Shown here in pieces: positions 44,001 to 53,700 of a DNA stretch of 64,000 nucleotides. How positions within the stretch are numbered: position 1 is the first letter of the stretch; each line of letters begins with the position of its first letter. The notes under the pieces were generated by a model that searched no databases, was not told the DNA's origin, and was given only the letters and a program-made list of their open reading frames with translations. Source of the stretch: Aplysia californica (Eukaryota); NCBI RefSeq assembly GCF_000002075.1, contig NW_004797506.1, positions 19,568 to 83,567 on the forward strand. The letters are read 5' to 3'. The translations under genes were made by a program, and so were the position numbers.

Positions 44001-47000
44001 TAGAATATGGCCAACAGAAGTTTTCAAAAATATTGATCTGTTAAGACAAATTGATATATGTCATAGTGCAAAAGCTGGAGAGTCTATGTTCGATAGTTCT
44101 GGAATTTTTTACTGCACTATACCATTAGGCAAAAAAACAGTGTAACACTTCTTTCCGAAATTCGTAAGGCCAACATCATCAAACACATCCACTCTCCATA
44201 AATGTTATTTCTCCAACCCACTGGGAGAGGTGGGCATCTGTCTAGTACAGCATTATAAAAAATATAATAAATAATAATGTGAGTACATAGACACACATAC
44301 ACATACTGAATACAGGTTAGACCTCATGAAAATCACACAAAAGTTCAGAATCCACAAACATGATACACCTGGAACAGCCCACCATCCGTTGCATGTGGCC
44401 ACTCACCCTTAGAACATTGCCCACCTCCAGGCACAGTGAAGCAGCCAGGGCAATCTGCTTGTTCTCTATGTGTACCTGCAAGACACATCAGAGACACTAT
44501 TGTGAACAAACTGACATCACACTATATAACCAAACACAATGATTAGAAGAAAAGTGAAAAGGGATGGGCCGGTAACTATGACTATGTCTATAACTTTCCA
44601 AAAACAATCTGAAAGTATACATTAGCCATTCCAGCAACCATTGTTCTAAGTTTGTATGTATATGTATAGTATAGGGTTTTACGGCGCTCGCAACTGCTAA
44701 GGTCATATGAGCGCGCCGTTCTAAGATCAGGGTTCCTGCCATGAACTTCCCACCAAATTCAAGGACATTTCAAGGAGGTTTCAAGGAGAAATTTTTTTAA
44801 TTCAAGGAGATTTGGTCAAGAAATTCATGACAAAAGCCTATTTTCGAAGGTCTACACTTGTCCGAAAAGAATCATATCATAGTTTCGATTTCCCTACAAA
44901 AACTGTTCACAGGATGACTGCCAACCCGGCTTCTCAATTTTCCGGTGGGGGGGCCTCATCCATTCTCCAGGGCATGTTACATAACAATGACTGTGCATGC
45001 TTCATTTATATATTATTTATTAATATATACACAGAATGGTGCGCACGCACGCATGTAGGTACATTCCAGTCAGCAACATGTCAGTGTGGCACTGGCATAC
45101 TGTGACTTAGGTATTGCAGTCAGTTCTTACTTATTTATATTTTCCCCTCATCATATTCCCCTATATAAACTATATAAAAATGAATCTTGCTTTGAGCCTG
45201 AGAAAAGGCCTAGAACCAGAATATCCACTGTCAAGAACCAGTTTGGGTGTCAAGGTTTATACAATATACCTAAAAGATAAAAATTATTACTCTAACTAAA
45301 AATAGAGTAATAACATGAATGTCTCAAGTAGACCTATTCAGTGTGAGAGGTGTAAAAACTGTGGGAGGGCAAGACGCAGTGACACTGAAAATCTGCAAAT
45401 CTTGAACAGAGAGCTCAAAAATAGAATACAATAAAGTAGTCTCCGCCTAAGATCCCGGTGCTCGGGAGCCAAGAAATGCGGGATCTTAAGCGAACCGGGA
45501 TCTTAACCAACGAACCCAGGGAAGAATCTATGGTGACCCATGTTAAGGCTCACAATCGGTAAAATGGTCTCCCTCCACTCTAAAATGAACTGATGTGACC
45601 CCTTGGTGGGTTTATGACATACGGCGAGCAAAGTGTGGTTAACCTTGATGACCTATCACAGTGCATAGTGGCATGAGGCGTGCCATTTTCACAAATTATC
45701 CTATCATGGTTCTCAATATCTACGCTTATCCAGCTGCCCCTCCCCTTTACCTGTANNNNNNNNNNNNNNNNNNNNNNNNNNNNNNNNNNNNNNNNNNNNN
45801 NNNNNNNNNNNNNNNNNNNNNNNNNNNNNNNNNNNNNNNNNNNNNNNNNNNNNNNCCCGTCGGATTATGCGACTGTGCGGCCGGGGCACGATGCCGTTTT
45901 TTCTCATAATCCTGCAACATTTGCATAATTTGGATTCCCCGTGTTTTGTCACGGTTTTTTTCCCCAATTATTCACAAAACAATAATTATTTAACTTAACT
46001 GCCTCGCCATGTGACTAAAGGGAAGTAATGACAGTAATTTTTATATAATAATTAAGTCTCATTTAAGTGATAAGTTTGTTATTTCCCTTGTAAGAAGATC
46101 TTGGTTAAGTTAATGGTTTATGGGTTAGGGATTTTGTTCCTTGAGCATGTTCAATTTTTCAATCCATCAAAAGTTGTTCTCATGTCTGCTGATGTTTCAT
46201 GTGTGACCGGTGTCCCTGGTTTTACTGATGTGCCAGCATCACAGGGTTTTGTGTCTTTCCTCCAACGTCTACAGCTGAAAGCTACACAGATTAGAGACAA
46301 TATTCTGTTGTTGTTTTTTTCTGACTCATGTGTATTGTTTTCTTTTTTAATACACAACAAATTACTGATACTGATATGTTCTGTTTTCAATTTTTCTGTA
46401 CATATAACTTGAAAATTCTTGTTGAAAAAATGCAAAACATGTTGCGAAGGGCGTTACGGTAACTTGCATAATTTTTGCATAATTTTGCATTTTTCTTGCC
46501 TAATTTGGCCATCTAAATTTGCATAGAGCTAATTCTGCGGGGACAGCCTTAAGGCCGTGATCAATTATACATCCCAGAACTAGTCAGAATGAGATACATC
46601 ATGTTTAGAAACTGTGGTCCTTGTGTTCATCACAAAGATTCCTTTAAGAAGCTTTAAAAACGTGGAACCGCGCGCTCAAAATTCATAACAGCTGAAAGAA
46701 TTTATAAAATAATATGCCTGTTGTTTATGTACAGAATTGTTATTCCCAATACAACTGCCTTCCTTTGTTTCAAACTACATTGTATATTATATTTGTGAAA
46801 GTTCCTCACTTTGGTTGCCTAAAAACGTCCGCACAGCTAAACTTTCAAATTTGAACAAATTAATGGTTGTTCAGAATCATTTAAAGGGTGCACTGATATA
46901 ATATTGAGGGGTCTGAAGTCACTGTTGTTTAATTTTCAGTTTTTCATTAGTTTCGTTTATATCTAATCTTGGGAAAGTCAGTCTTCTAAGACGCCATTGT

Positions 47001-47666: not shown

Positions 47667-47710
<44 letters not shown>

Positions 47711-50700
47711 TGTTTGGAAAGTAGAGTAGGAGGGAGAGTCTTGTTTGAATTTTAGACAAAATAACTTAACAATATAAAATGTTTAAAATTTGTTTAATAG
47801 CTCAACGTTTCGCCTCGTGGGCTTCCTCAGGAGCAACTCATCATCATCATGATCATCATCTCCATCATCATCATTGTAAACAGCAAGCAATAAAAAGGGT
47901 TAATGAGACTTGCAGAATTTCCGAGAAAATTTTAAAATAAAAGTTCAATGTTTTGCCCGATCACGGGCTTCATCAGGAACAGCATCATCATCATTGCCTT
48001 TCTCCCCCTGGACCAGGATATAGGCCACGAACAAACACTTTCCACCTTTCCCTATCCTGGGCTAGTCGCTTGATGTCACTCCATGTCTTCCCACTTTTCC
48101 GTACATCCATCAGGAACAAACAAAATAAATAACGTTACAATAGTCAGATGTACCAAAGACTACGCTAGCTATAGGTACCAAAGTGTGCGCATCAACGTCA
48201 CTGAGCCAAAAGGTGCGATAAACACAGATCAGCAAGACCAGGGAAAGAGGAATGTTATTGCAAGTAGTGGTATGGATATATAATATATATATATTTATAT
48301 ATTATAATTTATATATATATGTACCGTCAAATCATATATCATTTTTAATAGGCCTATTAATGTAAAGGTAAGTAGTAATAGTAGTAGTAGCTGTTGTAGT
48401 AATAGTAGTAGTACAGTAGTCTCCGCCTAAGATCCCACCGCTTACGATCCCGGTTCGCTTAAGATCCCGCTGATTTAAGAAAACAGAATTTATACTACAC
48501 AAAAGTCACCTCTAAGATCCCGCTCTGATTCACTCTGAAGGTCTACATTCGGCTAAGATCCCGCATTTCAGGTCATAATTTGCGGAAAAAAAACCGGGCG
48601 GCACAGCCGATCAACCAAGAGTGAAAATTTGAGATCAATAAACTGTCCGTCGCATCAAAGATCAGCTGCTATCGTGAATGTGATCACATACACGTTGTAA
48701 AACTCGATGAAGCGATACAATGTTTGCCCCAGACGGGATCACATCGGGGTGTGAACTGACCGACACGTTTGTTTTCCTCGAACATCTCACTCACACCTGA
48801 GCTATCCCCATATACTTACATCACTCATTGGGTGGGTAGGGCCTACACGTTCGCTCCTGGCGGGATCACATTGAACTGTGAACTCTTCCCTGACCATTGG
48901 AGAAGTTGTTTCTACTCCCGAATTTGCAAGACAGACTGAATTTTAATTGGTGTGTTCACAACGTAATGGTGTGTAACGACAAAGGCGGTTGGGGGAGATG
49001 GAAAGCTATACATTTTCGACAGGTAAGGGGGAGGGGAGGGGCAACTTGATAAGCGTAGATCTTGAGCCTCATGATAGGATAATAAGTGAAAATGGCACGC
49101 CTCATCCCACTATGCCCTGTGATAGGTCATCAAGGTTAACCACTCTTTCCTCGCCATACGTCATAAACCCACCCAGCGGTCACGTCAGTTCATTTTAGAG
49201 ATTGTTGGAGACCATTTTACCGATTGTAAGCCTTAACATGGGTCACCATAGATTCTTCCCTGGGTTCGTCGGTTAAGATCCCGGTTCGCCTAAGATCCTG
49301 CTTTTCCTTGCTCCCGAGCACCGGGATCTTAGGCGGAGACTACTGTAGTAGTAGTAGGAGGAGGAGGAGGAGGAGGAGGAGGCTTGTCGAGTCAAATCCA
49401 GAGAAGAAAAAGGGACCTGTGCACAGCACTAAAAGCTTTCGTCGCAACAAAATTAACCTGTTCACTCCATCTCCACTCGATGTATTTTATTTTCTATTTA
49501 ATTTACCAACCGTTTCCAATAGCTGTTTTATTTTTTTTATTTTTTTTTATTTTAACTGTTTCCTCTAGCTGTAATTCAAAAATAAAGAACAGCTGGTGGA
49601 GTTGGTGGGACAATAGAAAATAAAATGGAGTTAAGGGAAACAGTTTAGAAATATTTTTTGTTAAATGCAGTTGGTGAAGACCGTTGGAAAACAGAAAATA
49701 AAATACGGTTAGAGGAAACGGTTTTAAAGTATAAAAAAATACAATTAGTGGAAACGGTTGGAAAATAGGGGAAAACAGTTTTAAAATGTAAAATGAAATA
49801 CGTCTGTTAAGACTGTTGGGAAATAGAATATAAAGTACTATTGGTGCTGACGATTGGAAAATAAAATATAAAATACAGCTATACTGCTATAGGAAAAAGT
49901 TTTTTAAAAATAGAAAATGAAAAGCATCTGGAGGAGAGGGTTGTAAAATAGAAGAAAAAACACCTAGTGGAGACGGTCAGAAAATATAAAATAAAATACA
50001 TCTAGGGAAAATGATTTTAACATAGAAAATACAATACAGCAAGTGGACAAAGTTGGAAAGTCAGAAATAAAATACAGCTAGTGGTGACGGTTAGAAAATA
50101 TATAAGAAAGTACAACTAATGAACTAATGGAGACGGTTGAAAATTATTTTTTGTAAATACGGCTAATGGAGACGATAAGAAAAAATAAAATAAAATATAG
50201 CAAGTGGAGATGGTTGGAAAATATAAAAATAAAATGCAGCTAGTGTTGACGGTTTTAGAATATATATGAAAAAAAATACAGGTAGTGTTGATGGTTTTAG
50301 AATATGAAATAAAATACAGGTAGTGTTGATGGTTTTAGAATATGAAATAAAATACAGGTAGTGTTGATGGTTTTAGAATATGAAATAAAATACAGGTAGT
50401 GTTGATGGTTTTAGAATATGAAATAAAATACAGGTAGTGTTGATGGTTTTAGAATATGAAATAAAATACAGGTAGCGTTGATGGTTTTAGAATATGAAAT
50501 AAAATACAGGTAGTGTTGATGGTTTTAGAATATGAAATAAAATACAGGTAGTGTTGATGGTTTTAGAATATGAAATAAAATACAGGTAGCGTTGATGGTT
50601 TTAGAATATGAAATAAAATACAGGTAGTGTTGATGGTTTTAGAATATGAAATAAAATACAGGTAGTGTTGATGGTTTTAGAATATGAAAAAAAATACAGG

Positions 50701-53700
50701 TAGCGGAGACGGTTGAACAATACAAAGTAAAATACACCTAGTGGATGCAGTTTTGAAATAAAAAATAAAATACAGCTAGTGGAGATAGTTCTGGAATATG
50801 AAATAAAATACAGGTAGTGGAGACGGTTAGAAAATATTTATTAAAATACAGTTGGTGAAAACGGTTGGAAAATTTAAAATAAAATACAGCTAGTGGTGAC
50901 GGTTTTAGAATATGAAAAAAAATACAGTTAGTGAAGATGTTTGGAAAATATAAAAGAAAGTACAGCTAAGTGAGACAGTTGAAAAATACTTTTTTTATAT
51001 ACAGCTAATGAAGACGAAAAGAAAGAATAAAATAAAATACAGCGAGTGGACACGGTTGGAAAATATAAAATACAATACAGCTATTGTTGACGGTTTTAGA
51101 ATATGAAATAAAATACAGGTAGTGAAGACGGTTGGAAAATATTTTTTTTAATACAGCTAGTAGAGAAGGCTGATAAATATAACATTAAGAACAGCTAGTG
51201 GAGATGGCTTTGAAATACAAAATAAAATACAGCTAGTGCATGGAGACGGTTTTAAAATACAAAATAAAATACAGCTAGTGGAGACGGTTTTAAAATACAA
51301 AATAAAATACAGCTAGTGGAGACGGTTTTAAAATACAAAATAAAATACAGCTAGTAGTGGGCTCCCTAACTCCACCCCCACTGCAAATTTTAGTAGGAAC
51401 ATGCCACTTGGAACATACGTACCTTGAACAAAACTNNNNNNNNNNNNNNNNNNNNNNNNNNNNNNNNNNNNNNNNNNNNNNNNNNNNNNNNNNNNNNNNN
51501 NNNNNNNNNNNNNNNNNNNNNNNNNNNNNNNNNNNCCGTTGCATTCCGGGTCTCGGCGATTTTTTTCAAATGACCGGGTAATTCCAGGGGCCCCCGGGAT
51601 TCCCGGGGCCTGGCAGTCACCCTGTACACGTGTTCCTGTCCGATCTGGCAAAATTCAAGGAGTTTTCAAGGAGATTTTTCCTTGAATGCAAATTCAAGGA
51701 GTTTTCAAGGACTCCTTGAATTCAAGGAGGCCGCGGGAACCCTGTAAGTTTACTAATGGATTTGGTCAAACAGTTTTTTGAGTGGCATCCTTTTTTTCTT
51801 GGAAGGAAGAAAAGGGGAGGGGGGGGGACTCTGGGCTCAGTGGAAATGTTCGTTTTGCTGTTTTTACATTGCTTCTCTAGAGGAGAAGGCAGGCTTCAAA
51901 TGTGACTGCATCTGTGAACTGTACTAAATGTGAAAAAAGTTCAAATCTGATGCAGCACCTAAGTTGTTGGGAGAAACTAAAGGCCTTTATCACTCATCCC
52001 AAAGCAGAGGGAAGAAGGCTGTTCTCATAAAGGTTCTCCAACAGAACTAACTTGAATGTGTTGAGATATAAAGTGAACACTTTCTGAGTCTTAGGTGGTG
52101 ACAGTTACCTTGGTCTGCTCTTAACTCATTCAGTGTTACGGACAAGAATACTCGCGAAACGTGGGCCCCACCCACATACTAGCGACAAGTATTCTCGCAT
52201 TTCACCTCACTATCTTTATAGAAAGAATTACTCTATCTAATCCAAACTAAGTTATTTGAACTAATCGAGATGCATTATGAGATATTTTTTCTGCTCAAAC
52301 AGCCTTTGAGCCCTGTAGTTTTGATTGATTTTCTTGGATAGACCTAAATTTATGTTGCCATAACAAAACTGCCTTGTATATGAGGGGAGTTCACTGCAAG
52401 AGCGCTCAGCATTGAATGAGTTAACAGACCCACTTTCACCAACTAGAGGAATGACCCTTTCCCATAGTCATAAGACACATATATGTACATCTGTGTTATC
52501 AGAAACACATACTTCACATTTTCAGGTACATGATACAGCAGGTAACTATCTATCATTATTATTTATCTCTTGTGCCATGTTAAAATATAACTTTAGTTAC
52601 AGGGATAGCCATAGCATAAAATCTGGATGCTTTCCTTTAGAAGAAGAAGAGAATTTTTTTCAATTCGCCTATTCTAAAAAAAATATTCTGCAGTTGAGAG
52701 ATTTCCTATAAGGAACTTTTTTCACCAACCTCCAGTTATCCTGAAAACCAGGTCAAAAGCTATCCTTTGAAAGACAAACGTTGGTCTAATAAGGAATAGA
52801 TAAAAGATTAGCTGATCTTTACCCTGATAGCATGACTGTAGCAGTTGATGGAGGCCGTCAGGTCTTCCTGAAATCCCGGAACTCGGAGCTCTCTGTCAGA
52901 CAGTTCTGCCTCCAAGAACGCACGTGCTGCATCTAGCAATGCCTGGGCCTCGCCCGATGGGTTGGCCAGTGAGTTCTCACACCTGGAAGAGAGAGAAAGA
53001 GAGAGGGGGGGGGGGGTGAGTTGCTTCAACTCCCTGCTTACAATACATAGATACATAGAAAAATAACTAAGTACCAAAGTCAAAGGAACAATTGAGGATA
53101 CATTTAGACGACAAAATGTACATGGTACCTGTTTTGATTTGAGTTATCAACCTTAACCCTATCCGTACGTCGTGTACCTGTATCTACCTTAATCCTATCC
53201 GTACGTCGTGTTTCACTATCGAATCCATACGACGTGGAGAACTCTGTGCCACCACTTTCCAAAGAGGAAATTTACTCATTAATCCGATTCGTACGCTTTG
53301 CATAGCATTCTGTCAAAATTACTTTTTGAGAAAAGTACTAGAAGTATTCTAAAATGTGAAGAATACAACCCCGGGGGTACAAAATGACCCGAGGGCATTC
53401 AGATAGGGTTCCGCATGCGCAACGAGTTACTCATCTTGTACAAAATCACCTTGGGCAGGAGTATATGAGCACAAAGAATACTGTGCCCACAACACCAACA
53501 CAATCAGAAACAACAATGAAAACAGCAACAGCAACAAAAACAAAAACAACTTGAGAAGCTGTATGTACCTGGCCTGGGCAAGGCAACAGAAGCCAGCGTA
53601 CTGTGGACACTCCTGATTCCTCAGCTGTTTGGACAAACTAGCTGGATAGAGAAGGAAAAAAAACAACAGGTGTATCTTCAGAGAATATATGCGCTCAAGT

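What the first reader, a model, noticed from the sequence alone, without database searches (positions are those of the whole stretch)
47668..48085. Two tandem minimal hammerhead ribozyme cassettes in an (ATG)n tract, sense to the HAP40 pre-mRNA
Seen: the - strand reads RTE 3' end, (GAT)n, HHR2 + ~70 nt, (GAT)n, HHR1 + ~90 nt, (GAT)n. Each cassette starts with a hammerhead and ends in ACA|ATG. The two motifs covary: stem I is GCTC/GAGC versus GTTC/GAAC, and stem II is GCC/GGC versus GCCCG/CGGGC. HHR1 keeps CUGAGGA/GAAA and a palindromic ACGU stem III. HHR2 has lost G12, in a pattern consistent with CpG decay. Established: minimal type I hammerheads with palindromic stem III occur in Penelope-like elements and non-LTR retrozymes and cleave as dimers. 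Inference: two different ~110-130-nt ribozyme-bearing elements independently targeted an ATG microsatellite, possibly seeded by an RTE tail. They are transcribed within HAP40 intron 4.
Basis: partly seen in the sequence, partly recalled or inferred. Interest (0 to 1): 0.7.

Follow-up and report, generated by a model that had tools for sequence, protein, structure and literature searches.

The report
Nested Penelope retroelement ends with hammerheads
The two ribozyme-like cassettes are broken-off tail ends of two related Penelope-type jumping genes that sit in ATG repeats, one of them split by a later insertion; they are likely inactive and of a known kind, though the family likely finds its ATG targets by pairing a short stretch of its own RNA with the cut DNA.

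Summary
The motifs are real, but they are not independent 110-130-nt elements. Both are 3' ends of two subfamilies of a Penelope-like retroelement (RT plus C-terminal GIY-YIG, Neptune/Nematis type). The 3' end is fixed at ACA and followed by ATG repeats (89 of 98 F1 copies; background 11 of 1695). The 5' end is variably truncated, and the longest copies reach endonuclease-coding sequence. The HHR2 element is about 0.4 kb long and the RTE-like piece inserted into its hammerhead core with an 11-bp duplication, so it did not seed the tract. HHR2 carries two CpG-type changes and is likely dead. Single minimal hammerheads from truncated PLEs are published (PMC4209133), and this scan noted such stubs before in other genomes. 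Two extras remain of interest. Leaders of sister subfamilies carry only ATGAT(G/A) right after the fixed end, and 4 clean target duplications start with ATGAT-like letters, which suggests homology-guided priming. F1 5' ends pile up just before the hammerhead (22 of 78 at risk in 15 nt; 4 of 23 in a pre-set check, p about 0.03). Cleavage and priming are untested.

The parts
47668..47710 (-). (ATG)14 tract at the 3' end of the F1 copy; target microsatellite
   Evidence: 89 of 98 F1 copies have >=4 ATG in the next 30 nt
47711..47838 (-). F1 stub: 128-nt 3' end of PLE subfamily F1, starting 8 nt before core C3, inside the family's pile-up zone
47800..47834 (-). HHR1, minimal type I hammerhead, intact core, palindromic stem III; predicted cut between 47804 and 47803
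   Evidence: stems I and II form in the isolated 43-mer (-9.1 kcal/mol, z -0.29) but not in the whole 128-nt stub
47839..47874 (-). Imperfect (ATG)12 tract between the F2 end and the F1 start
   Evidence: a contig of another sample (X6) matches 47845-47979 with no difference
47875..47981 (-). Downstream part of the F2 copy, beginning with the second copy of the target duplication
47943..47980 (-). HHR2, decayed: G12>A at 47954 and stem III G>A at 47949; predicted to misfold with the core paired
   Evidence: G12 kept in 36 of 41 other F2 copies, stem III G in 35 of 41
47982..48110 (-). 5'-truncated 3' end of an RTE-like LINE with (ATG)4 tail, inserted into the HHR2 core; its first 3 nt overlap the duplication
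48108..48118 (-). First copy of the 11-bp target-site duplication (stem I 5' strand plus start of the core)
   Evidence: D13, 100%
48119..48413 (-). Upstream part of the F2 copy (3' UTR) up to its internal (TAC)n tract
   Evidence: e.g. 235 identities, 35 mismatches, 49 gap letters to L051
48403..49356 (.). Inverted-repeat element (34-nt arms, 91%) at the (TAC)n tract; bounds the F2 copy upstream
   Evidence: I1
52821..52982 (-). HAP40-like exon upstream of the host intron
   Evidence: HAP40, E 0.0036; AG/GT
44406..44475 (-). HAP40-like exon downstream of the host intron
   Evidence: AG/GT, in frame with the upstream exon; no PDB hit on its own; likeness to HAP40 is by eye

Best explanation
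The locus is a stack of three insertions, likely made one after another: a 5'-truncated end of Penelope-like subfamily F2, an RTE-like fragment that split its hammerhead core, and a 128-nt end of subfamily F1 in the ATG tract behind F2. Shown: fixed 3' ends, variable 5' ends, links to GIY-YIG coding sequence, ATG flanks, the 11-bp duplication. Inferred mechanism: the element's GIY-YIG nuclease nicks ATG-repeat DNA; the freed strand ending in CAT repeats pairs with the AUGAU(G) that follows ACA in the element RNA; RT starts there, 70-95 nt past the hammerhead cut site, and usually stops early; the 5' junction is often closed by microhomology with the tract. Each new end lies beside an ATG tract, so later copies land next to earlier ones and give chance tandems. 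The hammerhead is a passenger that is kept by selection in the active lineages and decays neutrally in inserted copies. This pair is predicted not to cleave efficiently and to have no role for HAP40.
For: Copy numbers: 124 exact F1 22-mers, 26 exact F2 23-mers, 358 intact hammerheads of this type, controls 0. 5' starts run from 36 nt to over 420 nt from the end. F1 copy L009/L090 and F2 copies L051/L089 and L039 carry GIY-YIG coding sequence upstream (68-90% to the L087 protein). L087 has a 568-aa frame with RVT_1 and GIY-YIG over cut-off, a C-X4-C-XX-C linker and CCHH residues, and the same hammerhead about 97 nt before ACA|(ATG)n. Core positions vary as much as flanks among F1 copies (5.0% against 5.2-5.4%). 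Five other F1 copies directly follow another subfamily's end (7 of 86 flagged, one is the window, one doubtful). Priming: in 5 independent loci the pLTR end is followed by only ATGAT(G/A) and unique leader; 4 clean duplications in non-repeat targets start 0-1 nt after ACA with ATGAT-like letters. 5' microhomology mean 1.7 against 0.93 nt, p 0.003, n=37.
Against: No full-length F1 or F2 copy was found, and no F1 leader junction (0 matches); the leader evidence comes from sister subfamilies. Only 4 of 106 copies gave a clean duplication. In PAc, RT starts at a site not homologous to the cut DNA (PMC11167929). A one-event template switch between F2 and F1 RNA is not excluded by direct evidence. 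16 of 72 F1 copies have a long 3' tract and almost none 5', which plain insertion into an old tract does not explain well. No cleavage or priming was measured.
Confidence: 0.85

Rival explanations
1. The ~128-nt F1 stub is a defined run-off product: RT primes in the 5' leader of the element's own RNA and runs to a transcription start or a splice acceptor just before the hammerhead. This refines the best explanation and does not replace it.
For: 5' ends in the window +2..-12 around C3: 18 of 55 at risk in discovery (hazard ratio 6.2; 0 of 20000 scan simulations), 4 of 23 in the pre-set check (p 0.029). By eye, 14 of about 23 junctions in the first 100 of 124 rows fall at -8/-7, where a pyrimidine tract ending in AG overlaps an initiator-like motif (consensus recalled). 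In D. virilis Penelope the intron end maps to the 5' end of helix I (PMC4209133). Earlier scan notes report the same in other genomes.
Against: About a third of the pile-up sits at +1/+2, where the core resembles the ATG repeat, so microhomology explains it. Other subfamilies show about 10 scattered junctions in 100 of 274 rows (by eye). No test statistic exists for the 2-nt peak. Start site, splice site and RT stalling at the fold cannot be told apart here.
Confidence: 0.4
2. Independent non-autonomous retrozymes of 110-130 nt that replicate through circular RNA and form an active dimer here.
For: Hundreds of copies; a few identical tandems of 195-350 nt period (L026/L027, L197/L198, C306); excess of short F1 stubs; retrozymes derive from PLE ends (bioRxiv 2026.07.22.740005).
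Against: No fixed 5' end; most copies are longer; only 3 of 96 usable F1 junctions lie within 2 nt of the cut site; the two units are from different subfamilies; HHR2 is decayed and was split by an insertion; published retrozymes carry canonical type I hammerheads in 150-450 bp arrays (PMC7229834).
Confidence: 0.06
3. The locus is a host-selected ribozyme switch acting on HAP40 pre-mRNA.
For: Both motifs are sense to the HAP40-like gene and HHR1 has an intact core.
Against: Orientation is a coin toss; cores decay at the neutral rate in the family; HHR1 stem I has pairing probability 0.0 in the tandem context; a mixed dimer would have mismatches in stems I and III (inferred).
Confidence: 0.02
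4. F2 and F1 ends were laid down in one event by template switching through ATG repeats, or the RT adds ATG repeats itself.
For: Chains of ends from different subfamilies (L284); 31 ATG repeats in front of a leader that normally has two (L308/L309); 16 of 72 one-sided tracts.
Against: The two window copies differ much in likeness to their relatives; the 4 clean duplications show no added repeats; when a 5' tract exists both tracts have median 17 repeats (n=44, p 0.32).
Confidence: 0.08

Closest known systems
Minimal hammerheads in pLTRs of metazoan PLEs (Cervera and De la Pena 2014, PMC4209133)
   Same: [quoted passage not shown]
   Different: Helix II is only 3-5 bp here, not 6-8; strict ATG-repeat flanks were not seen in the parts I read.
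Neptune/Nematis-type EN+ Penelope-like elements (as defined in Craig et al. 2021, PMC8557442)
   Same: RT then C-terminal GIY-YIG, CX2-5CxxC linker, CCHH motif, hammerhead, 5' truncation, partial tandems, microsatellite bias.
   Different: Target is (ATG)n; the passages I read name (TA)n, (CA)n and (C)n for other clades. Neptune versus Nematis not resolved.
PAc Poseidon element of Anolis (Frangieh et al. 2024, PMC11167929)
   Same: RT starts inside the RNA 85-92 nt past the hammerhead cut (here the fixed ends lie 93 and 72 nt past it) in AC-rich sequence; uncleaved RNA is the template.
   Different: PAc starts at a site not homologous to the cut DNA and cuts at ATT; here the start site is followed by letters that match the target repeat.
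Metazoan non-LTR retrozymes (PMC7229834; bioRxiv 2026.07.22.740005)
   Same: Type I hammerhead, AT-rich, related to PLE ends, occasional tandems.
   Different: Retrozymes are arrays of one fixed unit of 150-450 bp; this pair is two unlike, variably truncated ends.
Athena/Coprina EN-minus PLEs and telomerase
   Same: Priming helped by repeat-matching letters in the RNA next to a hammerhead (PMC8557442 introduction).
   Different: Those lack a nuclease and use chromosome ends; this family has GIY-YIG and internal ATG targets.

Membership tests
PLE minimal hammerhead | CUGANGA / GAAA / UH core with helices I and II | tested here: met
   HHR1 complete; HHR2 has G12>A, family state intact in 36 of 41
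PLE minimal hammerhead | Extra nucleotide before helix II, G10.1-C11.1, palindromic stem III | tested here: met
   ACGU in HHR1 and in most copies; lost in HHR2
PLE minimal hammerhead | Compensatory changes among subfamilies | tested here: inconclusive
   One pair changes on both sides (6 of 24 rows, likely one or two events); rows were picked for an exact core except HHR2
PLE minimal hammerhead | Self-cleavage as dimer or with protein help | not testable with these tools
   Folding only
EN+ PLE, Neptune/Nematis type | RT followed by C-terminal GIY-YIG | tested here: met
   L087 frame, Pfam RVT_1 and GIY-YIG; F1 and F2 copies linked to the same C-terminus
EN+ PLE, Neptune/Nematis type | CX2-5CxxC linker and CCHH motif | tested here: met
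   Read in the L087 protein and in L051
EN+ PLE, Neptune/Nematis type | Fixed 3' end, variable 5' truncation, pLTR by partial tandem | tested here: met
   hammerhead-pLTR-leader junction at L310 and L311
EN+ PLE, Neptune/Nematis type | RT phylogeny places it in Neptune | not tested
   No named reference proteins were held
Non-LTR retrozyme | Tandem array of one fixed unit with a hammerhead in each | tested here: not met
   Two unlike units; variable 5' ends
Non-LTR retrozyme | Abundant circular or unit-length RNA | tested here: inconclusive
   PolyA reads are the wrong library; no pile-up of ends
RTE clade LINE (inserted piece) | RT C-terminal region, short tandem tail, target duplication | tested here: inconclusive
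   DUF6451 hit, ATG tails in the 20 loci read, 11-bp duplication; clade not placed on a tree

The most novel reading that the evidence does not exclude
This Penelope-like family chooses ATG microsatellites by RNA-DNA pairing: a 5-6-nt AUGAU(G) in its own RNA acts like a miniature telomerase alignment region at an internal RT start, unlike the non-homologous start shown for PAc. Priming at the leader copy of that site gives fixed ~128-nt hammerhead stubs that end at the transcript's start or splice acceptor, and the element may lengthen ATG tracts as it inserts.
Probability: 0.35. Interest if true: 0.55.

Novelty: new member of a known kind. Interest (0 to 1): 0.27.

Why it matters
The locus itself is ordinary transposon debris in an intron. 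Its value is as a window on an open question: how PLEs pick targets and start reverse transcription. Microsatellite bias has been ascribed to the zinc-finger linker as a hypothesis (PMC8557442). The match between the element's leader and its target here offers a second, testable cause and a link to telomerase-like priming. The RTE insertion also shows that the hammerhead core can be split and rebuilt by a target duplication.

Tried and rejected
Rfam scan: no hammerhead model matched; uninformative for minimal motifs. Pile-up at the cleavage site: 3 of 96, rejected as a signal. Purifying selection on inserted copies: not seen. De novo ATG addition: not shown; 4 clean duplications have none, and tracts are symmetric when both exist. 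F1 leader junction: 0 matches; one search showed no downstream letters. Full-length intact element: not found; pieces joined only by overlap of different loci. Sequencing runs: no RNA holder listed. Three polyA runs gave low depth, 7-10 reads at 99% or more, about 80% running on into other sequence, and no place where many molecules begin or end; this says nothing on cleavage or HAP40 pre-mRNA. No empty-site allele was seen. First HAP40 coding exon not located. Literature: one search found no paper on PLE base-paired priming at microsatellites; one search listed 13 papers with Aplysia and Penelope, none read; 'Aplysia' occurs 0 times in the held, cut supplement of PMC8557442. Repbase, Arkhipova 2006 and Lunse 2017 were not available, so these families may already be named. 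bioRxiv supplements were closed.

Full report
Observation. The - strand holds the two motifs, spacers and ATG tracts as described. HHR1 (47834-47800) has a complete minimal core. HHR2 (47980-47943) has G12>A and a second G>A that breaks the stem III palindrome. Both are CpG-type changes; 36 of 41 and 35 of 41 other F2 copies keep the G. Rfam has no hammerhead among 18 matches at E<=10. The site lies sense in an 8.3-kb intron of a HAP40-like gene; the intron number was not fixed. The genome is 927 Mb.

What the cassettes are. Each is multi-copy: 752 and 177 first-look candidates, 124 and 26 exact matches to 22- and 23-nt probes downstream of the hammerhead, and 358 intact hammerheads of the shared type, controls 0. 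I examined 100 of the 124 F1 matches and 47 distinct F2 loci (29 best BLAST hits plus the 26 probe hits, duplicates removed). The 3' end is fixed at ACA. 89 of 98 readable F1 copies and 39 of 46 F2 copies have at least 4 ATG in the next 30 nt, against 11 of 1695 background windows. The 5' end is variable: 59 of 100 F1 copies start more than 12 nt upstream of the core, 29 lack part of the hammerhead, and 29 of 47 F2 copies start 25 nt or more upstream. The longest copies run through internal microsatellites into GIY-YIG coding sequence (F1: L009/L090; F2: L051/L089, L039). A sister subfamily has a 568-aa frame with RVT_1 and GIY-YIG over Pfam cut-offs, a C-X4-C-XX-C linker and CCHH residues, and the same hammerhead about 97 nt before the same end. 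By the definitions in PMC8557442 (passages read) this is a Neptune/Nematis-type PLE.

History of the locus. The sequence upstream of the RTE-like piece (48413-48108) aligns to the 3' UTR of other F2 copies and stops inside the hammerhead core. An 11-bp direct repeat flanks the RTE-like piece. So it inserted into F2 and duplicated the 5' strand of stem I, which is why HHR2 seems to begin a cassette. Its family has short ATG tails of its own. The F1 stub is closer to its relatives (92-96%) than the F2 copy is to its own (77-86%), which fits a later arrival in the tract behind F2 (inference). Such stacking recurs: 5 other F1 copies of 86 follow another subfamily's end, and L284 is a chain of several. 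A contig from another sample matches 47845-47979 exactly, so that part is not an assembly error.

How it likely works. Five independent loci show a pLTR end followed by only ATGAT(G/A) and then unique leader; in the F3-type loci the leader runs on to the start of a long frame (15 matches, 3 in control, about 5 of them chance). Four clean target duplications of 9-16 bp in non-repeat DNA begin 0-1 nt after ACA with ATGAT-like letters (4 of 106 examined; the other 19 flagged rows were repeat-derived or chance). I infer nicking of ATG-repeat DNA and priming by pairing with the RNA's AUGAU(G), at an internal site 72-93 nt past the hammerhead cut. PAc starts RT 85-92 nt past its cut, but at a non-homologous site, and does not need cleavage (PMC11167929, parts 1-2 of 4 read). 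5' junctions with a clean tract show more microhomology than a simulated null (1.7 against 0.93 nt, n=37, p 0.003). Against: no F1 leader was found, and 16 of 72 copies have one-sided tracts.

The hammerhead. Among F1 copies the core varies as much as its flanks (5.0% against 5.2-5.4%), as expected for dead copies. Across subfamilies the core is shared and one stem I pair changes on both sides (rows chosen for an exact core, so this is weak). Isolated HHR1 folds into stems I and II without unusual stability (z -0.29), and not in the whole stub or the tandem context; HHR2 folds with its core paired. PMC4209133 (parts 1-2 of 4 read) reports no cleavage of single motifs, low cleavage of dimers, and that most motifs are single and tied to truncated PLEs.

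The pile-up. F1 5' ends are in excess in the 15 nt from +2 to -12 of C3: 18 of 55 at risk in the first 75 loci and 4 of 23 in the 25 loci set aside beforehand (p 0.029). The window's stub starts at -8. By eye, 14 of about 23 junctions in the first 100 of 124 rows lie at -8/-7; no statistic was computed. Other subfamilies show no sharp peak (by eye). Earlier scan notes propose run-off at a capped start. A splice acceptor fits as well, as Penelope's intron ends at helix I (PMC4209133; passages of PMC2377424 read). RT stalling is also possible. Only 3 of 96 junctions lie at the cut site.

Other papers. PMC7229834, PMC3846280 and PMC12602865: passages only. bioRxiv 2026.07.22.740005: part 1 of 5 and passages; supplements closed. 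One search found no paper on base-paired PLE priming at microsatellites in this library; Repbase and Arkhipova 2006 were not seen.

Verdict. A real feature, misread as small independent elements. It is a new member of a known kind, interest 0.27. The homology-guided priming reading has probability about 0.35 and would merit about 0.55.

Noticed in passing
window 48403-49356 and about 45418-45549: Inverted-repeat element with 34-nt arms and internal sub-terminal repeats, sitting at a (TAC)n tract; a related end seems to lie near 45.5 kb in the same intron.
   Followed up: partly
window 50188-51355: Tandem array of a 38-bp unit, about 30 copies, in the same HAP40 intron.
   Followed up: no
window 17605-17970 (+): 3' end of a second, diverged RTE-like family with an ATG-type tail (36% to the inserted piece).
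   Followed up: partly
L308 and L309, about 120 nt before the match: 31-32 ATG repeats stand in front of a leader sequence that normally has two; possible repeat addition or copying of a read-through tract.
   Followed up: partly
L306, L308-L311 leader after the pLTR end: A splice-donor-like motif right after ATGAT(G/A)TG and an acceptor-like motif before the long frame suggest a retained 5' UTR intron, here downstream of the hammerhead.
   Followed up: no
L284 (G000:C1421:57500-67400): Chain of at least five hammerhead-bearing ends of different subfamilies; one hammerhead is duplicated around a 314-bp stretch.
   Followed up: partly
L026/L027, L197/L198, G000:C306:312776-313444: Near-identical tandems of truncated F1 ends (periods about 195-350 nt); possible starting points for retrozyme-like arrays.
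   Followed up: no
F1 copies, core position U4: A U4C core variant in 10 of 78 aligned copies, also seen in RNA reads of one run.
   Followed up: no
L328:5252-6334 (-): The element's frame has a long proline- and serine-rich N-terminal part with no Pfam match.
   Followed up: no
window 14.9-27.6 kb (+) and 0.9-3.5 kb (-): Exon-like frames of an MBOAT-type acyltransferase gene and of an Exo70-like gene (names from recall, not tested).
   Followed up: no
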